From NCBI GenBank assembly GCA_001769505.1, contig MEOF01000052.1:13557-77556 (forward strand): 64,000 nt of DNA, in the 5' to 3' direction. Made by a program: the position numbers and the translations under genes. Numbering within the stretch: the first letter of the stretch is position 1; the number at the start of each line of letters is the position of its first letter. This document shows positions 53,108 through 64,000 of this stretch, piece by piece. Below the pieces are notes generated by a model. It ran no database searches. It had not been told where the DNA came from and worked only from the letters and a program-made list of their open reading frames with translations. The stretch comes from Bacteroidetes bacterium GWF2_33_38 (lineage in GTDB: Bacteria; Bacteroidota; Bacteroidia; Bacteroidales; GWF2-33-38).

Positions 53108-53192
53108 GGAAAGATGGCAGAGTGGTCGAATGCGGCGGTCTTGAAAACCGTTGATCTTCACGGGTCCGGGGGTTCGAATCCCTCTCTTTCCG
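53108..53192 (+). tRNA. tRNA-Ser (anticodon UGA), class II with long variable arm; CCA not encoded
   Basis: Acceptor GGAAAGA/TCTTTCC plus discriminator G. Anticodon stem-loop GCGGT-CTTGAAA-ACCGT. Variable arm TGATCTTCACGGGTC. T-arm GGGGG-TTCGAAT-CCCTC. Confidence 0.9.
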
Positions 53193-54771
53193 CTGAAAGG
53201 GACTTCCCCAATAAAAAAGGGGAAGTCCCTTTTTTATTGGGGCTGCTTTCCCCGATGGTGTGGGCGATTGAGGCAAACACAGAATTTAGTTTTAATGTTC
53301 GAACTGCCCCAATTTTTCTATCATACACGATTCCTTCAGGAAACACCAATCTTTGTAATCTCTCTTTCAATACAACATTGCCGGAAGCCCACATTTCTTG
53401 CAGGTTGTCGCAAATATAAATTGCACGATTCAGTATGTTTTTATTGTTCGAAATGGGATTTTGACAATTGTTCAATTCTTTTATAATTTCAATTTGCTCG
53501 GCTTTATACTTTGAATAGAATCTCTCAAAAGTTTCTTTGCTCATTTCTCCCATAACGTAGAATTTTTCTTCAATCAAATCTAATTTCTTTGTAACTTCTG
53601 TTAGATTCGTTTTTATGGCTTTTTCTTTCTCCGTGTTGCTTTTAGTTAATTCATTGAAGGTGTTTTCCAATTGGAATAAAACAGCCTTTTTAAGGCTTTC
53701 TTTTAGCCGAAAATTAGCAAGCATTGAAATGAAAAGCTGATGCATATCCTTTGCGTTTTTATTACATTGACAACCTATTGTTCTACATTTATAATAATAG
53801 ATGTTTCTTGCTTTCATAAGGTAACCTGTAAATGGTTGTCCACATTCGGAACATTTCAGAAAAACCTTTAATGGAATATTATCATTTTCTGCTTTATGAG
53901 GAACTCCATACAGAGGAGATTCCGATATAATATTGTTAACTTTCAAAAAAGTTTCCTTGCTTACCATTGCTTCATGTGTTCCATCTACAACCTGTCCGTT
54001 TAGCAAGCCATGAGAAACTACTCCACAATAAAACGGATTGCAGAATATTTTGTGGAGCTTCTGTTTGTAAATGTTGGCTCCCATTGCACGTAGCTTCAGA
54101 ATAATATCGTCATTCTTCAATCCATTAAGTTTCCATTCAAAGGCATTTTTTAGCTTTTTACCCTCTTCGTTCAACACAATTTTTCTTGTGCCATTTATTT
54201 TAATTACATCGTATCCTTGTGGAGGTTGGGTTACCCATATTCCTTTTTTTAGTTTCTCAACCATTCCTGCTACAGCTTTTTGTTTGCGAAGCTGATTATC
54301 GTATTCCGAAAAAAGAAATTGAATATTCTGATGAAGTACTCCGCTTGGATTGCTTGTATCGGTTGGTTGAGTTACAGCAAAAACCGAAATTCCCTGCTTC
54401 TCCCTTAAATCAGTAACTATTTTAATGGCTGCTCCTCCGGTACGACTAAACCTGTCTAATGTATAAACCAATACTTGACTTATTTTTCCGTTTGATTTTT
54501 TTATAAACTCAAGCATTCGGTTAAATTCTTTTCTTCCATCGGTTTTAGCACTTTCATAAGTCCCCCCGAAATAAGCTACAATATTAAGATTATGCTTTTT
54601 TGAATATTCTTCAATCGCTTTTTTCTGGGTTTCAAGACTTAGGTTTTTGTCTGCCTGTTCTTTACTTGACACACGAGTATAAACGACTACATTGCCTGTA
54701 GTTACTCGTTTAACAATGGTAGGACTCTTTTTGCCGAACCTTTTGGCAAATGTTGCATCTGTTGTCATCAT
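53158..54771 (-). CDS. large serine recombinase (resolvase/invertase N-domain + recombinase domain + zinc ribbon)
   Basis: Catalytic Ser context VVVYTRVSSKEQ, ..YTLDRFSRTG.., and zinc ribbon CSECGQPF..YYKCRTIGCQC followed by a coiled-coil. The last ~30 codons read through the tRNA terminator and 35 nt of the tRNA gene. Confidence 0.9.
   Translation of the reverse strand: MMTTDATFAKRFGKKSPTIVKRVTTGNVVVYTRVSSKEQADKNLSLETQKKAIEEYSKKHNLNIVAYFGGTYESAKTDGRKEFNRMLEFIKKSNGKISQVLVYTLDRFSRTGGAAIKIVTDLREKQGISVFAVTQPTDTSNPSGVLHQNIQFLFSEYDNQLRKQKAVAGMVEKLKKGIWVTQPPQGYDVIKINGTRKIVLNEEGKKLKNAFEWKLNGLKNDDIILKLRAMGANIYKQKLHKIFCNPFYCGVVSHGLLNGQVVDGTHEAMVSKETFLKVNNIISESPLYGVPHKAENDNIPLKVFLKCSECGQPFTGYLMKARNIYYYKCRTIGCQCNKNAKDMHQLFISMLANFRLKESLKKAVLFQLENTFNELTKSNTEKEKAIKTNLTEVTKKLDLIEEKFYVMGEMSKETFERFYSKYKAEQIEIIKELNNCQNPISNNKNILNRAIYICDNLQEMWASGNVVLKERLQRLVFPEGIVYDRKIGAVRTLKLNSVFASIAHTIGESSPNKKGTSPFLLGKSLSAEREGFEPPDP
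53199..53235 (+). terminator. rho-independent terminator of tRNA-Ser
   Basis: gggacttcccc-aataaaaaa-ggggaagtccc (11-bp perfect stem) followed by TTTTTT. Confidence 0.8.
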
Positions 54772-55064
54772 GCTGCTATTTTTAAGTTGTTATTATATAT
54801 TATTGAATCATCGTCATTTTCCGGTTGAGTCAAGAAATCATAAATGATTGCACAAAAATTCTGAATAGAAAGAACAATTTCTTCTGCTTCAGAATCGGCA
54901 ATATCCTCTAAGCCTTCGAAAGTTTTTAATTTTTCGACAGTAAGGGATTCTTTTTCCGGATTGACACTTTTTCCACAAAAACTGTTTTCTGATTTTTCTA
55001 TGTTAGCTGTTAAGTTCATACTTCTGATTAGGTTAACAGTAATGCAATAATCGCTCCGTTCCAA
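54768..55064 (-). CDS. hypothetical acidic protein translationally coupled to the serine recombinase
   Basis: 98 aa. Its TGA stop overlaps the recombinase ATG (ATGA). No family recognised. Confidence 0.4.
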   Translation of the reverse strand: MERSDYCITVNLIRSMNLTANIEKSENSFCGKSVNPEKESLTVEKLKTFEGLEDIADSEAEEIVLSIQNFCAIIYDFLTQPENDDDSIIYNNNLKIAA

Positions 55065-55367
55065 TATTTTCGGTATGTTCGGGAATTTATTTCAAAGTAC
55101 CTCCTATTTCAAAGATTTATTGCATTTAACTGTATTGATTAATAATTAAATTTATTTAATGGCAGATTTTAACCGGAAAAATTTGAAATTTTCATAAAAA
55201 GAAACCATTGGGGACGATGGCTTTTTCATAAAAGGGACTGAATCCAAATTAGTCCAGTAAAATAAGCTCCATTTCAAATCAAAAGTAGAAAAGGCAAGAA
55301 TGATGATTTTCGGTTTATGCTCGATTATGTAGGGTTTTACCAAACAATTCCAAATTAGGGAGCGTTG

Positions 55368-55420
55368 TGTAGTTTTATGTAGCAAAATGTAGTTTTATGT
55401 AGAATTGTGTAGTTTTAAGT
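55368..55420. repeat. three direct repeats TGTAGTTTTA(T/A)GT at 20-bp spacing
   Basis: Copies start at 55368, 55388 and 55408. Confidence 0.8.
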
Positions 55421-55467
55421 TCCATTCTTTTATCTCCGGACAAATGGGTTTTATTCGTTAATAACAA

Positions 55468-55566
55468 GGAGACAATATGGTAATATTGGTGAGCATGTGG
55501 AGACAATGTGGTGTTTATATGGTGATGATGTGGGGGCAATGTGGTGTTGATGTGGTGATGATATGG
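55468..55566. repeat. three tandem ~31-34-bp units (GGAGACAATRTGGTG...), strongly G+T skewed, containing about 7 copies of ATGTGGTG-like octamers
   Basis: Units start at about 55468, 55499 and 55533. There are only 4 C in about 100 nt. Confidence 0.75.
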
Positions 55567-55962
55567 AATTACTCGGGTTTTTCTACCTTATTTCTAAAAT
55601 AACACCAATTTATTATAGGTTAAACTTGATAAATGATAATTTTTAAAAAAGAATTACAGTATTTGACATTTCAATTGATTTTCTAATTAATCACTAATAG
55701 AAATCTAATCATTGATTTTTATTGTTCTAATGTATTTCTAATAAAAGCCTAATATTATTCTTATATATCTCTAACTTATTTCTATTACTTTATTAGCGTG
55801 TATGTTTGTAATTCGCCTTAATGTAATGGCATATTAATCTGATAATTACACCAAAATATGTTTTTCAACTTGCAATGAATTGTAACGTACTAATTACCAA
55901 TAATAAATATAATAATATTGAATATAACAGTAAATTTATTTGCTCATATTGCAAGTTCAAAT

Positions 55963-55970
55963 TATCTTTG
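55963..55970 (+). promoter_or_regulatory. -7 promoter box (TATCTTTG = TAnnTTTG) for the XRE-ImmA gene, next to an operator-like inverted-repeat half-site
   Basis: The box lies 19 nt upstream of the ATG at 55989. The 10-bp inverted repeat is aacttgcaat (55867-55876) / attgcaagtt (55948-55957). Confidence 0.45.
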
Positions 55971-55988
55971 TGAAGAATAAAAATTGTT

Positions 55989-57044
55989 ATGAAAACTACT
56001 GAAAAAATAAATCCACAAATGGTAATTCTGGCGAGGGAATCAAGAGGAATCAGTCAGAAGGAGCTTGCCGATTTACTTGATATTTCAGCAGGTAAAGTTT
56101 GCCATGTTGAGCAGGATGCACAGACATTTAGCGACGTTGATTTTAATCGCCTTTGTCAGGTATTAAAATACCCAAAAAGTTTTTTTTATCAGCAAACCGA
56201 TGCTTTCTTGCCCACAATGGTTAATTTCAGAAAAAGATTGGTGGTTTCTCAACGGTTTATCATGCCAATTGAAGCACAAACCAATATTTTCAGGTTAAAT
56301 GTTGAGGCTCTTGCAAATGAAATAATATTACCAACGTTAAATATTCCTGAAATTAAAGAAACGAGCCCAATAGAAGTAGCTGACAAATTAAGAAAGCTAT
56401 GGAATATTCCCGATGGACCAATCGATAATTTAACAGAAATAGTTGAAAGTAACGGTATATTAATAGCGACTTTTGATTTTGGAACAGAAAGGGTGGACAG
56501 CAGAACAATTTTAACTTCCGGCAGGCATCCAATAATATTATTGAATAAAAAATCTCTTGGCGACAGAAGGCGTTTCAGTCTTGCATACGAGTTAGGGCAT
56601 ATATTAATGCATCTGTTTTATCCTGTTGAAATGGAAAGAGAAATAGGACACGAAGCCAATGTGTTTGCAGCAGCTTTACTAATGCAGGAATCTGAAATAA
56701 GAAAGGATTTTAATCAAGCGGACATAAATATACCTCGTTTATCAGTATTAAAACCCAAGTGGAAAGTTTCGATGCAGGCATTATTGTACAGATCTGATGA
56801 TTTGGGATATATTACTTATAATCACAAGCGATATTTGCTTTCAATGTTTAATCAAATGAAAATTCGCCGGAGAGAGCCAATTGAGCTGGATGTTCCAATT
56901 GAAAATCCAAATCTCCTTTCAAATTTAATGGAAGGATACAGAAACGAGAAAAATTTGTCGGTTAAGCAGATGGCTGACAAACTGTATCTTTTAAAGGATG
57001 ATTATATTGATAAATATGTAGCTGAAACAGAAAAACAATCCTAA
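55989..57044 (+). CDS. XRE-family HTH fused to an ImmA/IrrE (M78, COG2856) metallopeptidase-like domain
   Basis: N-terminal HTH (LARESRGISQKELADLLDISAGKVCHVEQD). The central motif FSLAYELGHILMH...EANVFAAALLM resembles ImmA/IrrE HExxH...E.eAN.FA..lLmP. Confidence 0.8.
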   Translation: MKTTEKINPQMVILARESRGISQKELADLLDISAGKVCHVEQDAQTFSDVDFNRLCQVLKYPKSFFYQQTDAFLPTMVNFRKRLVVSQRFIMPIEAQTNIFRLNVEALANEIILPTLNIPEIKETSPIEVADKLRKLWNIPDGPIDNLTEIVESNGILIATFDFGTERVDSRTILTSGRHPIILLNKKSLGDRRRFSLAYELGHILMHLFYPVEMEREIGHEANVFAAALLMQESEIRKDFNQADINIPRLSVLKPKWKVSMQALLYRSDDLGYITYNHKRYLLSMFNQMKIRRREPIELDVPIENPNLLSNLMEGYRNEKNLSVKQMADKLYLLKDDYIDKYVAETEKQS

Positions 57045-57054
57045 ACCCCATTAT

Positions 57055-57258
57055 ATGACCACAGAAATAAATAATACCATCCACCTTAAAGCATATTCAA
57101 TTGGCGAATTAGCCAAGATGTATGACATTAACTGGCGAACATTAAAAAAATGGATTGAACCTTTTGAATCTGAAGTTGGAAAGAGAAGGGGCAGGTTTTA
57201 CACAATTATTCAGGTTAAAGTTATTTTTGAAAAGTTGGGGATGCCTTCAATTGATTGA
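57055..57258 (+). CDS. small DUF4248-like helix-turn-helix protein
   Basis: 67 aa: YSIGELAKMY..TLKKWIEPF......FYTIIQVKVIFEKLGMP. This matches the recalled DUF4248 pattern (..ELA..Y....L..WI....tp.qV..If..LG.P). Confidence 0.5.
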   Translation: MTTEINNTIHLKAYSIGELAKMYDINWRTLKKWIEPFESEVGKRRGRFYTIIQVKVIFEKLGMPSID

Positions 57259-57279
57259 AATAATATTTTATAAACAATT

Positions 57280-57960
57280 ATGGATACGTCTGATAAAAAA
57301 CTTGGTGCTGAATATGCTTTAGAAAATGCAAAAAAACAATTCGAAGCAGCAGAATTAATTGCAGAAAAGAAGAATTATGGGCTTGCCTGTTCATTAATGG
57401 TACTATCCGCTGAAGAAGCACTTAAAGCTTTTGCTTTATTCGGAGATGATTTTTTGCCTGATTATAGCGGTATTGATTTTACAGAATTATTTAGCAGCCA
57501 TAATTATAAATTGAACCTTATAAGAAGTGCTATTGGTTTGAGAACCATAGTACAGACATTAAATAAAAATATCAATGAACCTGTGATAGAGAACATCGAA
57601 AAGCCGATAGATGAAATCATTGAAATTCGTAGCAAGGGTATTGATAATTTTGTCAATTGGGTTGAGAACGAGATTTCTTCAAAAAAAACAGAATTATCTT
57701 CACAACTTGGATGGTGGAAACAAGCAGAGGCTTTAAAAGAAGATGGTTTTTATATTAAGTACAATAACCAAGGATGGCATTCTCCCCTGAAAATCAAAAG
57801 AGCACGTTATGATAAAACCAAGAAGTATGTTAAAGATTTTATTGATATGATTGTTTTGATTACAACAGTTGATTTTGAGATAGAACCTGTTGCATCCATT
57901 TTTAATGATATAAAACAGAGATTTAACAATTTAAAGAAAAAATATGATAATAAAGGCTGA
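57280..57960 (+). CDS. AbiV-like (HEPN_AbiV) abortive-infection family protein
   Basis: N-terminal pattern ALENAKKQFEAAELIAEKKNYGLACSLMVLSAEEALKAFAL resembles the AbiV family signature (..Na..l..dA..L...g.y..A..la.la.EE.gKa). Confidence 0.55.
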   Translation: MDTSDKKLGAEYALENAKKQFEAAELIAEKKNYGLACSLMVLSAEEALKAFALFGDDFLPDYSGIDFTELFSSHNYKLNLIRSAIGLRTIVQTLNKNINEPVIENIEKPIDEIIEIRSKGIDNFVNWVENEISSKKTELSSQLGWWKQAEALKEDGFYIKYNNQGWHSPLKIKRARYDKTKKYVKDFIDMIVLITTVDFEIEPVASIFNDIKQRFNNLKKKYDNKG

Positions 57961-58654
57961 TTCTTACTTCAGGTACCCTCCATTGAATCTGAATCCTAAA
58001 CAGGTAATTGTTTTCAATGGAATTAGGTACAGCATTGATATTGTAGAAATAGCATATGAGCGTCTCTGCAAAAACTTATATGATTTTGTATATTCTGAAA
58101 ACAAGCCTTCATTTCCTGTGATATTTTCAGAATGTTGGACTATTATTAACAGTGCTACTATTTTTATCAATCTTTCAATCAGACATTTTAAAATAGATAA
58201 AGAAAATTCTATTTGGGATGGTATTCGTGAAATAAAGGAACTGAGAAATACTAATCAACATCTTGATGAAAGAATTAATGAGGTTTTACTTGAGAATAAC
58301 CTTCCTATTTACGGGGCATTATCTTGGTATTCACAGGAACATTTAGATGCAAAAGAAGGTGTAATTACGACTATCATTTCTGGGTCGTTCACTGGTGACA
58401 CAAACCATATTGTGCTAAATCCCGCTGGAAAAAAGCTTAAAAATACAATATCGGGTATTGAGTTTTCTACAACTGCAAGAACTAAGAATGGATTTGAGAT
58501 AATAAAGGTTGATTTGGAAAAAATAATCAATCAAATCAAGCATGTGGTTAATTATTTTGATAATCAATTGGTACCTCAATTAATTGATGTTGACATCACC
58601 GATAGATACAAAGGGGATTTAGTTATAAGCATGTATGTCAATAAATTAATATAA
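57944..58654 (+). CDS. hypothetical protein with a HEPN-like Rx4H motif
   Basis: 236 aa. Overlaps the upstream gene by 17 nt. Contains ..IKELRNTNQHLDERI.. (R-N-x3-H) in a helical context. Confidence 0.4.
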   Translation: MIIKADSYFRYPPLNLNPKQVIVFNGIRYSIDIVEIAYERLCKNLYDFVYSENKPSFPVIFSECWTIINSATIFINLSIRHFKIDKENSIWDGIREIKELRNTNQHLDERINEVLLENNLPIYGALSWYSQEHLDAKEGVITTIISGSFTGDTNHIVLNPAGKKLKNTISGIEFSTTARTKNGFEIIKVDLEKIINQIKHVVNYFDNQLVPQLIDVDITDRYKGDLVISMYVNKLI

Positions 58655-58672
58655 AAATAAAAATTCAATTAT

Positions 58673-59083
58673 ATGTCAAATTTTATTACAAGCATTTTAT
58701 TCGCTAAATCAATAAAAAAGCACAAAAATCAGTTGCAAAAATTAAATTCTCAAGTAGCTACTTTAAAAGATGATAGCAAAAAACTTTATGATAAAACTCA
58801 AGAAGTATTATTAGATATTGAATGTCCTAAGAATCTTTTGGCAGAGAATTCGACAACACATACTCTACTTGGAATTGAAAAAGATAAAAATGAGAACAAT
58901 GTCTTTGTTTTCATTAATGATAAATCTCTTTTTAAGAAATACTATAGTTCTGGAATTAATCACTTTGACATAGAATGCTACATTTCAGATAAAAGAGAAT
59001 ATCTTAATCGTCGCAGAGTACTTCATCTCATGGGAAAGTATAAAACTGAAAAGGAGATATTTGATTTACCTCACAATCACTAA
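58673..59083 (+). CDS. hypothetical protein (last gene of the island)
   Basis: 136 aa. Its last 6 codons and stop overlap the 3' end of the convergent T9SS gene. No family recognised. Confidence 0.35.
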   Translation: MSNFITSILFAKSIKKHKNQLQKLNSQVATLKDDSKKLYDKTQEVLLDIECPKNLLAENSTTHTLLGIEKDKNENNVFVFINDKSLFKKYYSSGINHFDIECYISDKREYLNRRRVLHLMGKYKTEKEIFDLPHNH

Positions 59084-60862
59084 CTTACCACCATCGGTCA
59101 ACTCTCCATTATTAACTATTTTATAATAATAAATTCCTTGCTTTAAAGCTGAAATGTCTATTAACTGTTTTTCTGTTTTTAGCTCTGTGGTTAATACTTC
59201 TTTGCCAAACAAATCATACACTTCGACTACGCTCAGTGTCCGATTATCGTTTGCCGGATACTGATTACTGATTATCGTTAACTGCTCACTTGCAGGATTC
59301 GGATAAATCGTAAATCGCAAATCGTAATTCGTAATTTCTTTAGTGCTTACATCCAAAAATACCGTAATCGTATAATACGCCGTATCGCTGCAATAATCAT
59401 TATTTGTAATTAGCTGTACTGTTTTAATTCCGGTGTGTGTGTAGCTGTGCTGTGGAAACTGCTCTGTACTTGTGATTGTATCGCCAAAATCCCATTGCCA
59501 GTTTGTGCCGAAGTTACTTATTATGCCAAATTGTACTGTTGCCCCTTCGGTTAAATAAACTGTATCGGAATCTGCTGTTATTTCTGAATTTACTGTATAG
59601 CAGCTATACGACCAGCAACCTTCATAAGTTGTAGTATCAATAGTGCAGGTATTACCCATACTATCGGTTTTTAGCAACCATAAATCGTTTTTGGCAGGAA
59701 GTGAATTATTTATTATGTAGCCTGTGGCGATAAACCCACCATCGTTGGTAAGATTTAAATCTTCTACATAGGTCTGTTTTGTACCACCATAGTAATTGAA
59801 ACTTTTTGACCAAAGAGTATCCCCTTGCATGTTAAATTTTAAAAGCCATACACGGCGACCATTTGGTGTGCCTGATAAATCTGCTTTACCTCCTGCTACA
59901 ATATAAGAACCGTCTGATAACTGACGCACTATTTTAAAATATTCATTTAATCCTGTTGCTCCAAATGTTTTACTCCATTGCTGATTACCAGAACTGTCGG
60001 TTTTTACAATATATCCGTTGTAATAATTATCTGTCATTTTTTTGTCCCCTACAATTATATATCCTTTATCAGATGTAGCAATTGTAAAACCACGATATTC
60101 TTCTGCTGTTGTACCAAATGATTTTTTCCATTCCTGATTTCCCAAACTATCGGTTTTTAACAGGAACATATCATTTGAACTTGTTGAAGGGTTATAATAA
60201 TCGCCCCCAATTATAAATCCTCCATCGGCGGTTAAATCTATTGATTTCAGATTATCATTGTAATTGGCTGCTCCGTATTCTCTTTGCCATTGTATATTGC
60301 CGAGACTGTCAGTTTTTATTAGAAAAACATTTGAATAAGTTTGAGTTGCATCTAAATTAATTCCACCAATAATAAAACCCCCATCGGAGGTTTGTTTGTG
60401 CATAAATCCGTGGTCGCTAACTCCACCTTCTATTGTTTTAAAAGTTACTGAATCGCCATTTTCATTTAATGTAAATAAAAAAGTATCTGTATCTATATTT
60501 ACAGTATCAGGAATATCCCCACAAACAGAATAATAATTATTTGGTAATTGAATTATACTATATCCATCTTCACCATAACCTTGATACCAATCATACATTT
60601 TTGTCCATGTTGTATCTCCTTTTAAATCAATTTTGACAAAAAGTATTGCATAATAGTCGCCATAAATAATTCCAGACGATATATAACCACTATCTGAAGT
60701 TTGAATTATTGACCAGCCTCCATTAACTTGATTATTATAATCAACAAGCCGATGAAAGGCATATTGTGATTTACTTATATTTACTATTGTAAAAAACAAT
60801 ATTAAAATTACTAAAGATTTTTTCATAAAATATTGAATTAAGAAAGGTAGCTTTATTTTCAT
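59066..60862 (-). CDS. T9SS cargo protein, paralog 1: beta-propeller-like repeats + PKD-like domain + CTD
   Basis: ~50-aa repeats (..DGGFIIGG.....LLKTDSLGNxxW..), a PKD-like segment (WQWDFGDTITSTEQFPQHSYTHTG) and a CTD (IYPNPASEQLTI..VYDLFGKEV..GIYYYKI). Confidence 0.75.
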   Translation of the reverse strand: MKIKLPFLIQYFMKKSLVILILFFTIVNISKSQYAFHRLVDYNNQVNGGWSIIQTSDSGYISSGIIYGDYYAILFVKIDLKGDTTWTKMYDWYQGYGEDGYSIIQLPNNYYSVCGDIPDTVNIDTDTFLFTLNENGDSVTFKTIEGGVSDHGFMHKQTSDGGFIIGGINLDATQTYSNVFLIKTDSLGNIQWQREYGAANYNDNLKSIDLTADGGFIIGGDYYNPSTSSNDMFLLKTDSLGNQEWKKSFGTTAEEYRGFTIATSDKGYIIVGDKKMTDNYYNGYIVKTDSSGNQQWSKTFGATGLNEYFKIVRQLSDGSYIVAGGKADLSGTPNGRRVWLLKFNMQGDTLWSKSFNYYGGTKQTYVEDLNLTNDGGFIATGYIINNSLPAKNDLWLLKTDSMGNTCTIDTTTYEGCWSYSCYTVNSEITADSDTVYLTEGATVQFGIISNFGTNWQWDFGDTITSTEQFPQHSYTHTGIKTVQLITNNDYCSDTAYYTITVFLDVSTKEITNYDLRFTIYPNPASEQLTIISNQYPANDNRTLSVVEVYDLFGKEVLTTELKTEKQLIDISALKQGIYYYKIVNNGELTDGGKLVIVR

Positions 60863-60878
60863 AAAGCTACCTTAAAAT

Positions 60879-61760
60879 TTATTTAATAATTACAAACTGA
60901 TTCTGATACACTATAACATTATTATCTTTCACAACATAATGATAAACTCCATTTTCTAACTCCTTAGTTTTGATTACAATTTTATTATCATTACCTGTCA
61001 GAGTATGCTCAAATACTTTTCTACTAATATTATCATATATTTCAATAATACTTCCTGCATAATTACTCGCATTATATTCAAATACAATATTGTCTGAGGC
61101 AGGATTAGGGTAAAGATTAAATTCATTACTATTGTAATAAACATTGTTTGTTGACAGAGTATTGTTATTTACTTTTAAGCTGCGTACTGTTGCTGTATTA
61201 AATTTCAAAACAGGGTATTCAAATTGCTCGTCAAACACCGTTTCCAAAACAGCCAAAGCACTAAACGCAGTTGCAGTATTTCCAGATGCAATTGTTCTGA
61301 TAGCTTGTTCCTGTTCCTGTGTCAATTCAAATATTGTTTTGTTCTGTTCTGCCAAATTAATCAATATTGTCATATATTCATAATATGCAACAGCATCTTC
61401 TACCTTTTCGCTTTCTGCTGTATTCAATACTTCTACCAAAGCATCGGCACAGGCTGCATAATCATTATTCGACAGGTAAATTTCTGACAATAGTTTTTTA
61501 TCTTCGTAATTATCCGAAGTAATTAAAATACTCATTGCCTGTGCCGAATCACCATTAGTAAAGTAATAATCTACAGCAAAGTTATTCAATTGATTTATCT
61601 GTGCTTCATTATAAGCTATTTCTTTTTCGAGTGTTTCTCGTGCAGAGACTCCAATTGTCTGAACCACTGATTTACAAAGTTGATTTGTCTGATTTGCATG
61701 ATTTATACCATACAACCATACCATTATACACAAAATGATCATAGTTTTCATAAAAATCAT
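60879..61760 (-). CDS. T9SS-CTD protein, paralog 1 of the partner gene
   Basis: Helical N-terminal half. CTD reads LYPNPASDNIVFEY..IEIYDNISRKV..NGVYHYVV. Confidence 0.65.
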   Translation of the reverse strand: MIFMKTMIILCIMVWLYGINHANQTNQLCKSVVQTIGVSARETLEKEIAYNEAQINQLNNFAVDYYFTNGDSAQAMSILITSDNYEDKKLLSEIYLSNNDYAACADALVEVLNTAESEKVEDAVAYYEYMTILINLAEQNKTIFELTQEQEQAIRTIASGNTATAFSALAVLETVFDEQFEYPVLKFNTATVRSLKVNNNTLSTNNVYYNSNEFNLYPNPASDNIVFEYNASNYAGSIIEIYDNISRKVFEHTLTGNDNKIVIKTKELENGVYHYVVKDNNVIVYQNQFVIIK

Positions 61761-61780
61761 TCAAAAATCAGCGGTAAAGA

Positions 61781-63541
61781 CTACCTCACAATCACTAACT
61801 TACCACCATCGGTCAACTCTCCATTATTAACTATTTTATAATAATAAATTCCTTGCTTTAAAGCTGAAATGTCTATTAACTGTTTTTCTGTTATTAGTTC
61901 GGTTGTTAATACTTCTTTTCCAAACAAATTGTAAATTATTAGATTGCTTCGTGCCTCGCAATGACGTGCTGATGGGCTGCATGTTACCGTTAACTGCTCA
62001 CTTGCAGGATTCGGAAAAATTGTAAAATGGGCGTTTCGGCTACGCTCAACGACCATTTGAGAGCTTACATCCAAAAATACCGTAATTGTATAATACGCCG
62101 TATCACTGCAATAATCATTATTGGTGATTAGCTGCACGGTTTTAGTCCCGGTGTGTGTGTAGCTGTGCTGTGGAAACTGCTCTGTACTTGTGATTGTATC
62201 GCCAAAATCCCATTGCCAGCTTGTGCCAAAGTTACTAATTGTACCAAATTGTACTGTTGCTCCTTGTGTTAAGTAAACTGTATCGGAATCGGCTGTTATT
62301 TCTGAATTTACTGTATAGCAGCTATACGACCAGCAACCTTCATAAGTTGTAGTATCAATAGTGCAGGTATTACCCATACTATCGGTTTTTAAAAGCCACA
62401 AATCGTTTTTGGCAGGTAATGAGTTATTTATAATATAGCCTGTGGCTATAAATCCGCCATCGTTGGTGAGGTTTAAGTCTTCCATATAGGTATGTTTTGA
62501 ACCTCCATAGTAGTTATAAGTTTTTGACCATACTGTATCTCCTTGCTGATTGAGCTTTAATAACCATGCTTTCACTCCATTAGGTGTACCTGACAAATCA
62601 GGTTTCGTACCGCCTATAATATATGAACCATCAGGTAATTGACGCACCTGGTGAAAATAATCATTAACTCCTGGAGTATTTATTATTTTACTCCATTGTG
62701 TATTTCCTAAACTGTCTGTTTTTATAATATAGCCGTTAAATGTATTATCTGTTGTTTTTCTGCCTCCTACAATAATAAAACCTTTATCTAATGTTGATAT
62801 TGCAAATCCATCTCCTTCATCTACTGTAGTGCCGTAAGATTTTTCCCATTCCTGATTACCAAGACTATCAGTCTTTAACAAGAACATATCATACGAATTT
62901 GTTGACGGGTTTTCAAAATCACCACCAATTATATAGCCTCCATCGGGTGTTAAATCAATAGATTTTAGATAATCGTTATAGTTTGCTGCTCCGTATTCTT
63001 GTTGCCATTGTATATTTCCTAAACTATCAGCTTTTATTAAAAAAACCTGTGTATAGGTTGCTGTTGTATCATAATTGTAGCCACCAATTATAAAACCACC
63101 ATCTGTGGTTTGTTTGTGCATAATATGTCTGTCGTTAAAGCCCTCGTCAATTGGTTTTAACCATTCAACACTACCATTATTATCTAATTTTAATAAAAAC
63201 CCACTGGACGCTCCTTCTGTTGAATCAGCGGCAAATCCACTTATAATAAAGCTACCATCGCTTTTCTGAATAACTGATTTAGGTATATCTCCACCAACAG
63301 TGTAGAAATCGTGCATTATTGACCATGTTGTATCTCCATATTCATTTAATTTCAATATGTACATACCATCATAGTTTTCTAATGAACTACCTACAACAAT
63401 AAAAGTATTGTCTGATGCTTGAATAACTGAACGACCAGCATCATAAAAATAATTCTCAAACCCATACAATTTATGAAATGTAAATTGGGCACTACTAACC
63501 TTAAAAAAAGAAAGCAATAATATACAAAAAATAATTCTCAT
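61781..63541 (-). CDS. T9SS cargo protein, paralog 2 (beta-propeller-like repeats + PKD-like + CTD)
   Basis: Same architecture as 59066-60862. The C-terminal ~200 aa are nearly identical and the N-terminal half is diverged. Confidence 0.75.
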   Translation of the reverse strand: MRIIFCILLLSFFKVSSAQFTFHKLYGFENYFYDAGRSVIQASDNTFIVVGSSLENYDGMYILKLNEYGDTTWSIMHDFYTVGGDIPKSVIQKSDGSFIISGFAADSTEGASSGFLLKLDNNGSVEWLKPIDEGFNDRHIMHKQTTDGGFIIGGYNYDTTATYTQVFLIKADSLGNIQWQQEYGAANYNDYLKSIDLTPDGGYIIGGDFENPSTNSYDMFLLKTDSLGNQEWEKSYGTTVDEGDGFAISTLDKGFIIVGGRKTTDNTFNGYIIKTDSLGNTQWSKIINTPGVNDYFHQVRQLPDGSYIIGGTKPDLSGTPNGVKAWLLKLNQQGDTVWSKTYNYYGGSKHTYMEDLNLTNDGGFIATGYIINNSLPAKNDLWLLKTDSMGNTCTIDTTTYEGCWSYSCYTVNSEITADSDTVYLTQGATVQFGTISNFGTSWQWDFGDTITSTEQFPQHSYTHTGTKTVQLITNNDYCSDTAYYTITVFLDVSSQMVVERSRNAHFTIFPNPASEQLTVTCSPSARHCEARSNLIIYNLFGKEVLTTELITEKQLIDISALKQGIYYYKIVNNGELTDGGKLVIVR

Positions 63542-63589
63542 AATCTTATTAAATTAAAAAAGTAGCCTTTTGGAAAGGCTACTTTTAAG

Positions 63590-64000
63590 TTATTTTATAA
63601 TTACAAATTGATTTTGATACACTATAACATTATTATCTTTCACAACATAATGATAAACTCCATTCTCTAATTTTTTTGTATTAAATTCAATTTTGTTATC
63701 ATTGCCTGAAAGATTATATTCAATTACTTTTCTACTTAAATTATCATAAATTTCAATAATGCTTCCTGCATAATTACTCGCATTATATTCAAATACAATA
63801 TTGTCTGAGGCAGGATTAGGATAAAGTTTAAATTCATTATTATTGTAATAAACATTATTTGTTGGCAGAGTATTGTTATTTACTTTTAAGCTACGTGCTG
63901 TTGCTGTATTAAATTTCAAAACAGGATAATCAAATTGCTCGTCAAATACCGTTTCCAAAACCGCCAAAGCACTAAACGCAGTAGCCGTATTCCCTGATGC
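63590..64000 (-). CDS. T9SS-CTD protein, paralog 2 of the partner gene; 5' end beyond the window
   Basis: The frame stays open to the window edge. It aligns with the C-terminal part of 60879-61760 (AVLETVFDEQF.YPVLKFNTA..). Confidence 0.65.
   Translation of the reverse strand, partial: ASGNTATAFSALAVLETVFDEQFDYPVLKFNTATARSLKVNNNTLPTNNVYYNNNEFKLYPNPASDNIVFEYNASNYAGSIIEIYDNLSRKVIEYNLSGNDNKIEFNTKKLENGVYHYVVKDNNVIVYQNQFVIIK

What the first reader, a model, noticed from the sequence alone, without database searches (positions are those of the whole stretch)
53108..59083. ~5.9-kb large-serine-recombinase island next to tRNA-Ser(UGA), with ORFs at both ends running into host sequence
Seen in sequence: a 537-aa large serine recombinase (YTRVSSKEQ; zinc ribbon CSECG..YYKCRTIGCQC) is transcribed toward tRNA-Ser. 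It has no stop until 53158, so its last ~30 codons are read from the tRNA terminator hairpin (53199-53235) and 35 nt of the tRNA gene. At the other end, the last island ORF (58673-59083) terminates 18 nt inside the convergent T9SS gene, whose paralog at 61781 has no such neighbour. I found no long direct repeat of the tRNA 3' end at the far border. Established knowledge: serine integrases recombine through a 2-bp crossover and leave no long duplications, and attP usually lies next to the integrase gene. Inference: the left junction lies around 53236-53260 and the right junction around 59060. The recombinase C-terminus would then differ between the integrated and excised forms, which could couple integration state to protein sequence.
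Basis: partly seen in the sequence, partly recalled or inferred. Interest (0 to 1): 0.7.

Follow-up and report, generated by a model that had tools for sequence, protein, structure and literature searches.

The report
Serine-recombinase island targeting tRNA gene ends
This is a small mobile defence island that a large serine recombinase inserts immediately after a tRNA gene, bringing its own tRNA terminator inside the recombinase's reading frame, and it belongs to a large Bacteroidota family that does this at many tRNA genes, a target class not usually credited to serine integrases.

Summary
A 537-aa large serine recombinase (LSR) ORF (53158-54771, minus strand) reads through a hairpin and 36 nt of tRNA-Ser(UGA). 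The last ORF (58673-59083) ends 18 nt inside the T9SS gene.

A second copy of the element, 99.7% identical, sits at a different gene, tRNA-Ser(GCU). The matching empty site diverges from the base immediately after the tRNA (...TCCGC|). The left junction is therefore 53193|53194, not 53236-53260. The hairpin belongs to the element and replaces the tRNA's native terminator.

The LSR tail does depend on the insertion site: 537 aa here, 566 aa in the second copy.

This is a family trait. In 68 of 76 related loci the ORF runs into a convergent tRNA (Ser, Asp, Leu, Pro, Arg, Gln); the other 8 keep tRNA 3' fragments. All 73 sequences tested have the in-frame hairpin. The frame stays open to the junction in 69 of 70 distinct sequences.

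The far junction is unresolved. It lies between 58655 and 59065, and the best candidate is the GC at 58977-58978.

Cargo is AbiV plus an RmrA-like regulator.

No evidence shows that the variable tail has a function.

I rate this a new variant of a known kind.

The parts
53108..53193 (+). Host tRNA-Ser(UGA) gene. Its 3' end (T-arm, acceptor strand, discriminator and the C at +1) is the B half of the attachment site.
   Evidence: ARAGORN. Rfam RF00005, 59.4 bits. In 68 of 76 family loci a convergent tRNA sits at this position.
53189..53194 (.). tRNA-side junction (host|element = 53193|53194). The crossover dinucleotide must lie within TCCGC (53189-53193).
   Evidence: Empty site L122 compared with occupied L112 and L121: 0 mismatches in 1195 nt, then divergence right after ...CCGC. 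The two target tRNAs share only the suffix TCCGC; they differ at 53183 and 53188.
53199..53242 (.). Element-borne terminator-like hairpin. Stem A is 53199-53209/53219-53229, followed by T6 at 53230-53235. An alternative palindrome B is 53206-53221/53227-53242. It lies in frame inside the LSR ORF, encoding KKGTSPFLLGKS.
   Evidence: dG -26.8 kcal/mol, z -7.4. A hairpin is present in 73 of 73 family sequences, with inner stems that differ between subfamilies. The fold is more stable in the tRNA sense in 55 of 73. The same hairpin travels with ~90%-identical elements to Ser, Asp and other tRNAs. It is absent from the empty site. The SNP pair 53207 C>A and 53241 G>T keeps palindrome B paired.
53158..54771 (-). 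Large serine recombinase, 537 aa. The conserved protein ends near residue 505 (...NSVFASIAH). The last ~32 residues are a linker, the hairpin-encoded stretch, and antisense tRNA.
   Evidence: Pfam PF00239 (1.6e-26), PF07508 (7.7e-10), PF13408 (weak). 2989 homologues found. Invariant catalytic-domain and Cys residues. PDB matches to the catalytic domains of TP901-1 integrase and a resolvase-family protein.
54768..55064 (-). Small conserved partner ORF (83-98 aa) that overlaps the LSR start codon. Candidate accessory or directionality factor.
   Evidence: An ORF of at least 50 aa ends at or near the LSR start in 66 of 76 loci, most with a shared motif (LTVEKLK.F.G.E..SD.EA..IV). No Pfam, PHROG or PADLOC hit.
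55065..55988 (.). Non-coding control region with iteron-like repeats: 20-nt units at 55355-55420, an 11-nt periodic array at 55468-55585, and 44-nt units at 55694-55784.
   Evidence: the repeat finder. Tandem Repeats Finder. Several metagenome assemblies break here, at 55493/55501. Function not tested.
55989..57044 (+). Fused XRE-type HTH and M78 (ImmA/IrrE-like) peptidase, RmrA-like. Probable switch or regulator of the element.
   Evidence: Pfam PF06114 (9e-16) plus HTH domains. PADLOC RmrA, 3.5e-57. PHROG 2439 transcriptional regulator, 7.7e-82. Conserved in the related element L014.
57055..57258 (+). 67-aa HTH protein (weak MerR/DUF4248-like). Candidate excisionase or directionality factor.
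   Evidence: Weak Pfam hits, E about 1e-3. Conserved next to the XRE-M78 gene in L014 and in L126-L128.
57280..57960 (+). AbiV-type HEPN abortive-infection protein (cargo).
   Evidence: Pfam PF18728, 3.2e-18, above the curated cut-off. The HTH-AbiV linkage recurs in contigs from other sites, L127 and L128.
57944..58654 (+). 236-aa ORF of unknown function, overlapping the AbiV gene's end (cargo).
   Evidence: ORF list. No significant family hit.
58673..59083 (+). 136-aa orphan ORF whose 3' end runs into host DNA and 18 nt into the T9SS gene. Possibly not a real gene.
   Evidence: A search of 1.84 billion representatives finds only its own cluster. No family hits.
58974..58983 (-). Best candidate for the far junction. 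The 10-mer ATGTAGCATT (minus strand) contains the GC at 58977-58978. The junction is bracketed between 58655 and 59065.
   Evidence: The same 10-mer lies at the far end of members of the unrelated-host 4.2-kb elements (exact in L024 and L032, 1-2 mismatches in most others). Contig L119 ends at 58979. GC is the only dinucleotide of TCCGC available there. This is weak evidence: the flank beyond the GC is also conserved in some 4.2-kb elements, and the predicted copy-2 fusion protein was not found.
59066..60862 (-). Host T9SS-sorted PKD-domain protein gene. Its intact 3' end sets the outer limit of the island.
   Evidence: Pfam Por_Secre_tail and PKD. Its C-terminus is identical to that of the paralogue at 61781.

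Best explanation
The stretch from 53194 to about 58978 (at most 59065) is a roughly 5.8-kb integrative element moved by a large serine recombinase. It inserted immediately after tRNA-Ser(UGA), behind the discriminator and the C at +1.

Inferred mechanism. The recombinase recognises the conserved 3' part of a tRNA gene (T-arm and acceptor strand) as one half of attB. It exchanges strands at a dinucleotide within the last five bases, TCCGC. This leaves the tRNA gene intact and produces no long duplication.

The element's P' arm is a terminator-like hairpin flanked by an A-tract and a T-tract. After integration this hairpin sits where the tRNA's native terminator was and takes its place. The same hairpin lies in frame inside the 3' end of the recombinase ORF. 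That ORF has no stop before the junction, so the protein's last residues are always supplied by whatever lies across the junction: antisense tRNA when integrated, the element's other end when excised.

Gene content is a conserved small partner ORF, iteron-like repeats, an XRE-M78 (RmrA-like) regulator, a small HTH protein, and defence cargo (AbiV plus two ORFs of unknown function).

Shown: the tRNA-side junction, recent mobility, element ownership of the hairpin, the site-dependent tail, and family-wide conservation of the arrangement.

Inferred: the strand-exchange chemistry, the terminator function, the roles of the accessory genes, and the far junction.
For: LSR domains and catalytic motif.

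A second copy, 99.74% identical over 2336 nt, at tRNA-Ser(GCU) in another genomic context. Its empty site is identical for 1195 nt up to ...CCGC and carries its own terminator.

The tRNA acceptor strands differ between the two copies at 53183 and 53188. This shows that all but at most the last five bases (TCCGC) of the tRNA 3' end are host DNA.

4.2-kb elements about 90% identical to one another, with the same hairpin, sit at Ser-UGA, Ser-GGA, Ser-GCU and Asp tRNAs in different hosts.

68 of 76 loci have a convergent tRNA overlapped by the ORF, and the other 8 retain tRNA 3' fragments.

Within clusters at 90% identity, a single recombinase carries many different tRNA-derived tails.

A hairpin is present in 73 of 73 sequences, with median dG -21 kcal/mol and z -7.

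The frame is open to the junction in 69 of 70 distinct sequences.

No repeat of the tRNA 3' part of 12 nt or more occurs within 10 kb upstream or in the window.

Cargo and regulator annotations.
Against: No attP (circular) form was found.

The far junction is not mapped.

The only dinucleotide of TCCGC that also occurs at candidate far ends is GC. GC is palindromic, which is unusual for serine integrases because the central dinucleotide normally sets polarity.

In the 4.2-kb group, about 19 nt beyond the candidate GC are conserved among some elements in different hosts. The simple model does not explain this.

No empty site exists for the window's own host; all 19+ contigs of that population carry the island.

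The terminator function of the hairpin is inferred from structure and position only.
Confidence: 0.85

Rival explanations
1. First reader's version. The hairpin is the host tRNA's own terminator, and the element starts beyond it, at 53236-53260. Only then does the recombinase tail leave element DNA.
For: The hairpin looks like a standard tRNA terminator. Unoccupied tRNAs in related genomes have similar hairpins 4-10 nt after the gene.
Against: The empty site L122 has a different hairpin and diverges from the occupied sites at the first base after ...CCGC. The window's hairpin moves with the element to another tRNA. Identical hairpins accompany ~90%-identical elements at four different tRNA species.
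Confidence: 0.02
2. Classical tDNA island geometry. The crossover lies inside the tRNA (T-loop or anticodon loop), and the element supplies a replacement tRNA 3' end, as in tyrosine-integrase islands.
For: Some relatives are followed by tRNA 3' fragments of 12-65 nt instead of a whole tRNA, several of them broken exactly at TTC|GAA in the T-loop (L096, L049, L074).
Against: No displaced tRNA 3' fragment lies at the far end, either in the window or within 10 kb in 60+ loci. The acceptor 3' strands match each host tRNA although the elements are nearly identical. The fragments are better explained by later insertion of other islands into the same tRNA: L087 carries three copies of the tRNA-Pro 3' part in a row, each with its own terminator.
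Confidence: 0.03
3. The junction-spanning tail is functional. Integration state changes the recombinase's C-terminus or the 3' end of its mRNA, and thereby its stability or activity.
For: The frame is kept open to the junction in 69 of 70 distinct sequences, although the other two frames are full of stops. The tail demonstrably changes with the insertion site, 537 versus 566 aa. The ORF has to be transcribed head-on into an expressed tRNA gene and through a terminator-like hairpin.
Against: Beyond the junction the sequence is simply antisense tRNA. Stops fall from 3 to more than 500 codons downstream, so no tail is conserved. The 'KKG..PFL' conservation is equally explained by the hairpin's A-tract, stem and T-tract at the DNA level. 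No excised form is available for comparison.
Confidence: 0.12
4. The island is an immobile, decaying remnant, and the ORF overlaps are accidents of decay.
For: Every contig of the window's own population carries it at the same place. A truncated remnant (hairpin plus 139 nt of the LSR 3' end) exists at the second site (L121). The last ORF is an orphan.
Against: The LSR ORF is intact with invariant catalytic residues. A 99.74%-identical copy at a second tRNA, together with an empty allele in the same host background, shows recent movement.
Confidence: 0.05

Closest known systems
Phage-type large serine integrases (phiC31, Bxb1, A118/LI, TP901-1)
   Same: Same domain series: resolvase catalytic domain, recombinase domain, zinc ribbon, long C-terminal part. 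Short att sites. No long target duplication. attP lies next to the integrase gene.
   Different: The target here is the extreme 3' end of tRNA genes. [quoted passage not shown] The P' arm doubles as a terminator hairpin. One cluster at 90% identity uses several tRNA species.
tRNA-targeting genomic islands with tyrosine integrases (Islander-type; e.g. phage mv4 at the 3' end of tRNA-Ser, 10.1101/2023.11.06.565760; NBU1 in Bacteroides, from my own knowledge)
   Same: They use tRNA genes as conserved landing pads. They keep the tRNA functional. They build tandem arrays at the same tRNA (L087).
   Different: Those elements use tyrosine recombinases. They cross over inside the gene and carry a copy of the tRNA 3' part, which leaves a displaced fragment as a direct repeat. 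Here the recombinase is of the serine type, the whole tRNA remains host DNA, only the terminator is replaced, and there is no repeat.
attP inside a gene: SSV1-type archaeal integrases (PMC8371274, listed) and integration-dependent immunity of cluster G mycobacteriophages (from my own knowledge)
   Same: Integration changes the product of a gene that spans attP.
   Different: In SSV1 the integrase gene is split in two. In the mycobacteriophages the repressor loses a degradation tag, with a proven regulatory effect. Here only the last ~10 or more residues of a serine recombinase change, and no functional consequence has been shown.
Tycheposons of marine bacteria (10.1101/2020.12.28.424599)
   Same: Small cargo-carrying, tRNA-associated integrative elements. 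A minority carry a large serine recombinase.
   Different: A different host phylum. Mostly tyrosine recombinases with partial tRNA repeats. No report there of an ORF-embedded terminator or a junction-spanning recombinase ORF.

Membership tests
Large serine recombinase (serine integrase) | N-terminal resolvase-type catalytic domain with the nucleophilic serine | tested here: met
   PF00239, E = 1.6e-26, residues 28-178. Motif YTRVSSKEQ. Y31, R33, S35 and others are invariant in 33 homologues. PDB matches to the catalytic domains of TP901-1 integrase and a resolvase-family protein.
Large serine recombinase (serine integrase) | Recombinase domain followed by a zinc-ribbon domain | tested here: met
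   PF07508, 7.7e-10, above the cut-off. PF13408 scores 20.4 bits, below its cut-off of 25.3, but C307, C310, C334 and C336 are invariant or nearly so.
Large serine recombinase (serine integrase) | Short att sites, 2-bp crossover, no long duplication | tested here: inconclusive
   The tRNA-side junction is mapped to within 5 nt and there is no repeat of 12 nt or more. The exact dinucleotide and the far junction are not determined.
Large serine recombinase (serine integrase) | Catalyses attP x attB integration, and excision with a directionality factor | not testable with these tools
   Only indirect support: two insertion sites plus one empty site for the same element.
Islander-type tDNA island | Tyrosine integrase | tested here: not met
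   The only recombinase is of the serine type. No tyrosine recombinase ORF lies in 53194-59065.
Islander-type tDNA island | Crossover inside the tRNA gene, with the element restoring the 3' part and a displaced fragment as a direct repeat | tested here: not met
   No second copy of the tRNA 3' end. The acceptor strand is host-specific in the two copies.
Integration-dependent gene alteration (attP within an ORF) | An ORF spans attP, so integration changes its product | tested here: met
   The same recombinase carries different tails at different sites: 537 versus 566 aa, and many tails within clusters at 90% identity.
Integration-dependent gene alteration (attP within an ORF) | The change has a regulatory consequence (tag loss, gene split) | not testable with these tools
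   There is no conserved tail beyond the junction. This needs experiment.
AbiV / RosmerTA-like defence cargo | AbiV HEPN domain protein | tested here: met
   PF18728, 66.8 bits against a cut-off of 27.1. The PADLOC models did not hit it.
AbiV / RosmerTA-like defence cargo | RmrA antitoxin paired with an RmrT toxin | tested here: inconclusive
   RmrA models hit the XRE-M78 protein at 3.5e-57, but no RmrT model hits any neighbour. The same protein type also serves as a regulator of mobile elements (my own knowledge of ImmR/ImmA).

The most novel reading that the evidence does not exclude
The open frame across attP is selected because it makes the recombinase's fate depend on integration state. 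When integrated, the gene has no stop codon of its own. It must be transcribed through a terminator-like hairpin and head-on into an expressed tRNA gene. The result would be truncated, non-stop or antisense-paired mRNA and a tRNA-encoded tail, which would keep recombinase levels low and stabilise the insertion. When excised, a different 3' end is restored. This would be a serine-integrase counterpart of integration-dependent immunity, operating across a whole Bacteroidota family of tRNA-targeting elements.
Probability: 0.12. Interest if true: 0.8.

Novelty: new variant of a known kind. Interest (0 to 1): 0.62.

Why it matters
Serine integrases are the main tools for unidirectional DNA insertion. 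They are generally described as targeting protein-coding genes or intergenic sites, while tRNA genes are treated as the domain of tyrosine integrases (PMC4383910). This window leads to a large family: 2989 hits among the candidates scored, and 556 confirmed relatives among the candidate stretches of a capped scan of species-representative genomes. The family lands immediately after tRNA genes without touching them, reuses the conserved T-arm and acceptor as a landing pad across several tRNA species, and carries a replacement terminator.

This matters in four ways.

- It explains a class of small defence islands next to Bacteroidota tRNAs.
- It shows that island finders relying on tRNA-fragment repeats will miss these elements.
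- It reveals an annotation problem: the recombinase gene is dropped in some pipelines on DNA identical to the window, possibly because it overlaps the tRNA.
- It offers candidate integrases whose attB already exists in almost any bacterium.

Whether the junction-spanning ORF has a regulatory role is open and can be tested directly.

Tried and rejected
1. Empty site for the window's own locus. Exact look-ups of the HU, T9SS, 236-aa and XRE-M78 proteins returned only occupied or truncated contigs of one Rifle groundwater population. A metagenome scan with the SpoU protein found only 52-56% relatives without synteny.

2. Far junction by homology with L014. The local alignment of the two far ends is not better than shuffles: 131 of 300 shuffles reach the observed score.

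3. Far junction by predicted fusion. The copy-2 fusion protein expected for a junction at 58978 is not in the 15-billion-protein collection. This is uninformative rather than negative.

4. Far junction by a native terminator. No significant hairpin lies in 58975-59070 on either strand.

5. Far junction by homologues of the 136-aa ORF. It is an orphan.

6. attP or circular forms. A pattern scan of IMG/VR and of all fetched loci found none. The cluster members examined showed no excised-type tail.

7. Crossover at TT, or at +2/+3. Rejected for the window-type element, because attB and attL already differ at +2.

8. Crossover at CC or TC. This would require CCGC or TCCGC at the far end. None occurs in 58655-59066; the only CCGC sites lie inside the AbiV gene and the 236-aa ORF.

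9. Contig ends as junction markers. The Logan breaks at 53211/53237 and at 59096 are explained by the palindrome and by the T9SS paralogue repeat, not by the element's ends.

10. The consensus RNAalifold run on the ungapped alignment was out of register. I replaced it with per-sequence folding.

11. A homologue search with the gene flanking the empty site found nothing.

Full report
**1. What is in the window**

A 537-aa ORF (53158..54771, minus strand) carries Resolvase (E 1.6e-26), Recombinase (7.7e-10) and a weak zinc-ribbon match. It converges on tRNA-Ser(UGA) at 53108..53193.

The ORF has no stop until 53158-53160. Its tail ...ESSPNKKGTSPFLLGKSLSAEREGFEPPDP is read antisense through a perfect 11-bp hairpin (53199-53209/53219-53229), which on the tRNA strand is followed by T6, and then through 36 nt of the tRNA gene.

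Downstream genes on the plus strand:
- an XRE-HTH/M78 peptidase fusion at 55989-57044, which hits PADLOC RmrA at 3.5e-57;
- a 67-aa HTH protein;
- an AbiV HEPN protein (PF18728, 3.2e-18);
- a 236-aa ORF;
- a 136-aa ORF that ends 18 nt inside the convergent T9SS gene.

A 98-aa ORF overlaps the recombinase start codon. A 0.9-kb non-coding stretch carries 20-nt, 11-nt and 44-nt repeats. No other copy of the tRNA 3' end exists in the 64 kb.

The window is contig DNSL01000057.1 of a Bacteroidales MAG from groundwater.

**2. The same arrangement is a family trait**

The best 120 of 2989 homologues almost all end in a translation of antisense tRNA, for example ...SLSAEREGFEPP......SADRTGLEPATSAVTGRHSNQLNY... 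and ...VGKTGFEPATPWSQTRCATGLRY....

I examined 80 loci from species-representative genomes.
- 4 are cut off by contig ends.
- Of the other 76, 68 have a convergent tRNA whose 3' end is overlapped by the ORF: Ser with four anticodons, Asp, Leu, Pro, Arg and Gln.
- The remaining 8 keep a tRNA 3' fragment.
- More distant relatives in IMG/VR sit at tRNA-Met.

The reading frame relative to the tRNA end is the same in every case: the codon A or V corresponds to the last acceptor base, the discriminator and +1.

In 70 distinct sequences, the 25 codons before the junction contain a stop in the recombinase frame only once. The other two frames contain stops in 44 and 62 sequences.

**3. The hairpin belongs to the element**

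When the sequences are aligned on the tRNA end, every family member shows the same layout: an A-tract, a GC-clamped stem (usually GGGAC...GTCCC), about 5 nt, then the tRNA.

All 73 sequences fold, with median dG -21.2 kcal/mol and median z -7. The inner stem sequences differ between subfamilies while pairing is kept. The fold is more stable on the tRNA-sense strand in 55 of 73, as expected if G-U pairs matter in the tRNA transcript.

A group of ~4.2-kb elements, 86-93% identical to one another, carries one and the same hairpin next to Ser-UGA, Ser-GGA, Ser-GCU and Asp tRNAs in different hosts. Identity stops at ...GTCCCTTTCA|GCGG.

Unoccupied tRNAs in the same loci have their own, unrelated terminators in the same position.

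**4. A second copy and an empty site fix the left junction**

The 90%-identity cluster of the window's recombinase contains a 566-aa member. Its contig, L112, is 99.74% identical to the window over 55501-53166. However, it sits at tRNA-Ser(GCU) beside an M64 peptidase gene.

Only four element positions differ.
- 53207 C>A and 53241 G>T are partners in the palindrome 53206-53221/53227-53242, so pairing is preserved.
- 53269 and 53272 are synonymous changes.

Contig L122, from another run, is the empty allele of that site. It is identical to L112 and L121 for 1195 nt, up to ...CTCTCTCCGC. It then continues with AAAAATAAAGGCTTGCCAGTTATGGTGAGCCTTTTTTG, a strong native terminator (dG -20.9 kcal/mol, z -3.8). 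The occupied sites instead continue with TGAAAGGGACTT....

The host|element boundary is therefore 53193|53194. The two target tRNAs share only the suffix TCCGC, so the exchanged dinucleotide must lie within those five bases. All but at most those last five bases of the tRNA gene stay host DNA. What the element replaces is the terminator.

**5. The recombinase tail does depend on the site**

The same recombinase is 537 aa at Ser(UGA) and 566 aa at Ser(GCU). Within other 90% clusters, one protein appears with Ser-, Asp- or Leu-derived tails and with lengths from 528 to more than 1000 aa.

The conserved protein ends near residue 505. The apparent conservation of KKG..PFL..SLSAE is what the A-tract, stem, T-tract and tRNA end encode.

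The tail is therefore real as a translation product, but nothing shows that it is functional. What does need an explanation is the strict absence of stops before the junction. I record integration-dependent control as the most novel reading that the evidence does not exclude, at low probability.

**6. Alternative crossover geometries**

*A crossover inside the tRNA, with an element-borne 3' end.* This is excluded. There is no displaced fragment, and the acceptor strands are host-specific.

The tRNA fragments that follow some relatives are best read as later insertions of other islands into the same tRNA. L087 has the recombinase followed by two 60-nt tRNA-Pro 3' fragments and then the intact gene, each preceded by its own terminator. 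L075 is similar. L096 lies at the edge of a predicted prophage.

*A crossover at +2/+3 or at the TT further out.* This is excluded for this element, because attB and attL already differ at +2.

**7. The far end is not resolved**

The far junction must lie right of 58654 and left of the T9SS stop at 59066. The right-of-58654 limit rests on two points: the AbiV cluster is packed in one operon-like array, and HTH-AbiV linkage recurs in contigs from other environments.

The best candidate is the GC at 58977-58978.
- The minus-strand 10-mer ATGTAGCATT around it also lies at the far end of the 4.2-kb group (exact in L024 and L032, 1-2 mismatches in most others).
- One JGI contig stops at 58979.
- GC is the only dinucleotide of TCCGC available in this AT-rich stretch.

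There are arguments against it.
- GC is palindromic.
- About 19 nt beyond the corresponding GC are conserved among some 4.2-kb elements in different hosts.
- The similarity between the far ends of the window and of the related element L014 is no better than chance.
- No native terminator lies between 58975 and 59070.
- The predicted copy-2 fusion protein is not on record.

The 136-aa ORF that crosses this region has no relatives among 1.84 billion representatives. It may not be a gene, so 'ORFs at both ends running into host sequence' is meaningful only for the recombinase.

**8. Gene content and likely roles (inferred)**

An ORF of 50 aa or more directly upstream of, or overlapping, the recombinase start occurs in 66 of 76 loci, most with the shared motif LTVEKLK.F.G.E..SD.EA..IV. 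It is a candidate accessory or directionality factor.

The XRE-M78 fusion and the 67-aa HTH protein are shared with L014. L014 is a related element (recombinase 75% identical) at the same SpoU-HU-tRNA-Ser locus of a related host. There the cargo differs, and the element appears to end just after the HTH gene.

The island is thus a conserved backbone with exchangeable defence cargo.

**9. Comparison with what is known**

The enzyme is a member of the large serine recombinase family (membership table). The behaviour resembles tRNA-targeting islands, but the element fails both defining features of the Islander type.

[quoted passage not shown] It also states that serine-recombinase elements usually integrate within genes (PMC5704250). 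Searches for tRNA-targeting serine recombinases in Bacteroidota found nothing specific. Tycheposons include a minority with large serine recombinases. I cannot exclude a description outside the searchable library.

I therefore classify this as a new variant of a known kind. The mechanism class is known. The target class is new, and so is the architecture: attP inside the ORF's 3' end, with a terminator built into the P' arm.

**10. Verdict**

The left junction is corrected to 53193|53194. The right junction remains open. The feature is real, recently mobile, and representative of a large, apparently undescribed family. Interest 0.62.

Noticed in passing
window 53207 and 53241 (compared with L112): The only two non-synonymous differences between the two element copies are complementary partners of the palindrome 53206-53221/53227-53242 (C.G becomes A.T). 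The change weakens stem A but keeps palindrome B paired. This suggests that the alternative hairpin, or a DNA palindrome, is under selection.
   Followed up: partly
window 55355-55585 and 55694-55784: Iteron-like arrays in the island's non-coding region: three 20-nt units (TGTAGTTTTATGTAG...), about seven units with 11-nt periodicity (TGGTGATGATG), and two 44-nt units. Several assemblies break at 55493/55501. They could be an origin or binding sites for a regulator.
   Followed up: partly
L132, L134 (= window 57237-48995, identical DNA): In the JGI and NCBI records with DNA identical to the window, no recombinase gene is called at all. Gene callers may drop an ORF that runs into a tRNA, so members of this family may often be missing from annotations.
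   Followed up: partly
L121:1196-1765 (JGI 3300025095): At the second insertion site, one contig keeps only the hairpin plus the last 139 nt of the recombinase gene, followed by unrelated DNA with a convergent ORF. This is either a decayed remnant that still supplies the tRNA terminator or a chimeric assembly.
   Followed up: partly
L087:11600-11930 and L075:11600-12050: Tandem arrays at tRNA-Pro. The recombinase is followed by one or two ~60-nt tRNA 3' fragments, each with its own terminator, and then by the intact tRNA. L085 is the same host and element without these extra pieces. This looks like accretion of other islands between the LSR element and the tRNA.
   Followed up: partly
window 57237-57320: Many independent assemblies break at 57236/57237 or start at 57320. 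One has a scaffold gap there and one a 2-nt deletion. The region is the boundary between the HTH gene and the AbiV gene. This suggests co-occurring element variants with different cargo that share the backbone up to this point; L126 diverges at the same place.
   Followed up: partly
window 59066-64000: A tandem array of paralogous T9SS-sorted genes (598 aa, 293 aa, 586 aa, then another 293-like gene) with identical C-terminal ends. Population contigs show mosaic variants: 281- and 578-aa forms, and L120 at only 96.7% identity. This indicates recombination among the paralogues.
   Followed up: no
L014:11650-11720: Just beyond the 5' end of tRNA-Ser in the related locus, a second copy of the first ~16 nt of the tRNA (GACCACTCTGCCATCT on the locus strand) lies about 50 nt away. 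It is a partial duplication of the tRNA 5' part, of unknown origin.
   Followed up: no
window 57406-57415: Inside the AbiV gene, the 10-mer TCCGCTGAAG nearly repeats the attL junction TCCGC|TGAAAG. It is also present in the AbiV homologue of L127, so it is probably a coincidence of coding sequence (LSAEE).
   Followed up: partly
L110:11560-11680 and L039, P0107, P0209 tails: A few relatives have ...SLSAG followed by non-tRNA sequence. L110 has GCGGG followed by an imperfect 16-nt inverted repeat. L039 and P0107 share a homologous ~25-aa extension (..S.N.F.EDL.RI..F). These could be attP-like or otherwise unusual junctions and were not explained.
   Followed up: no
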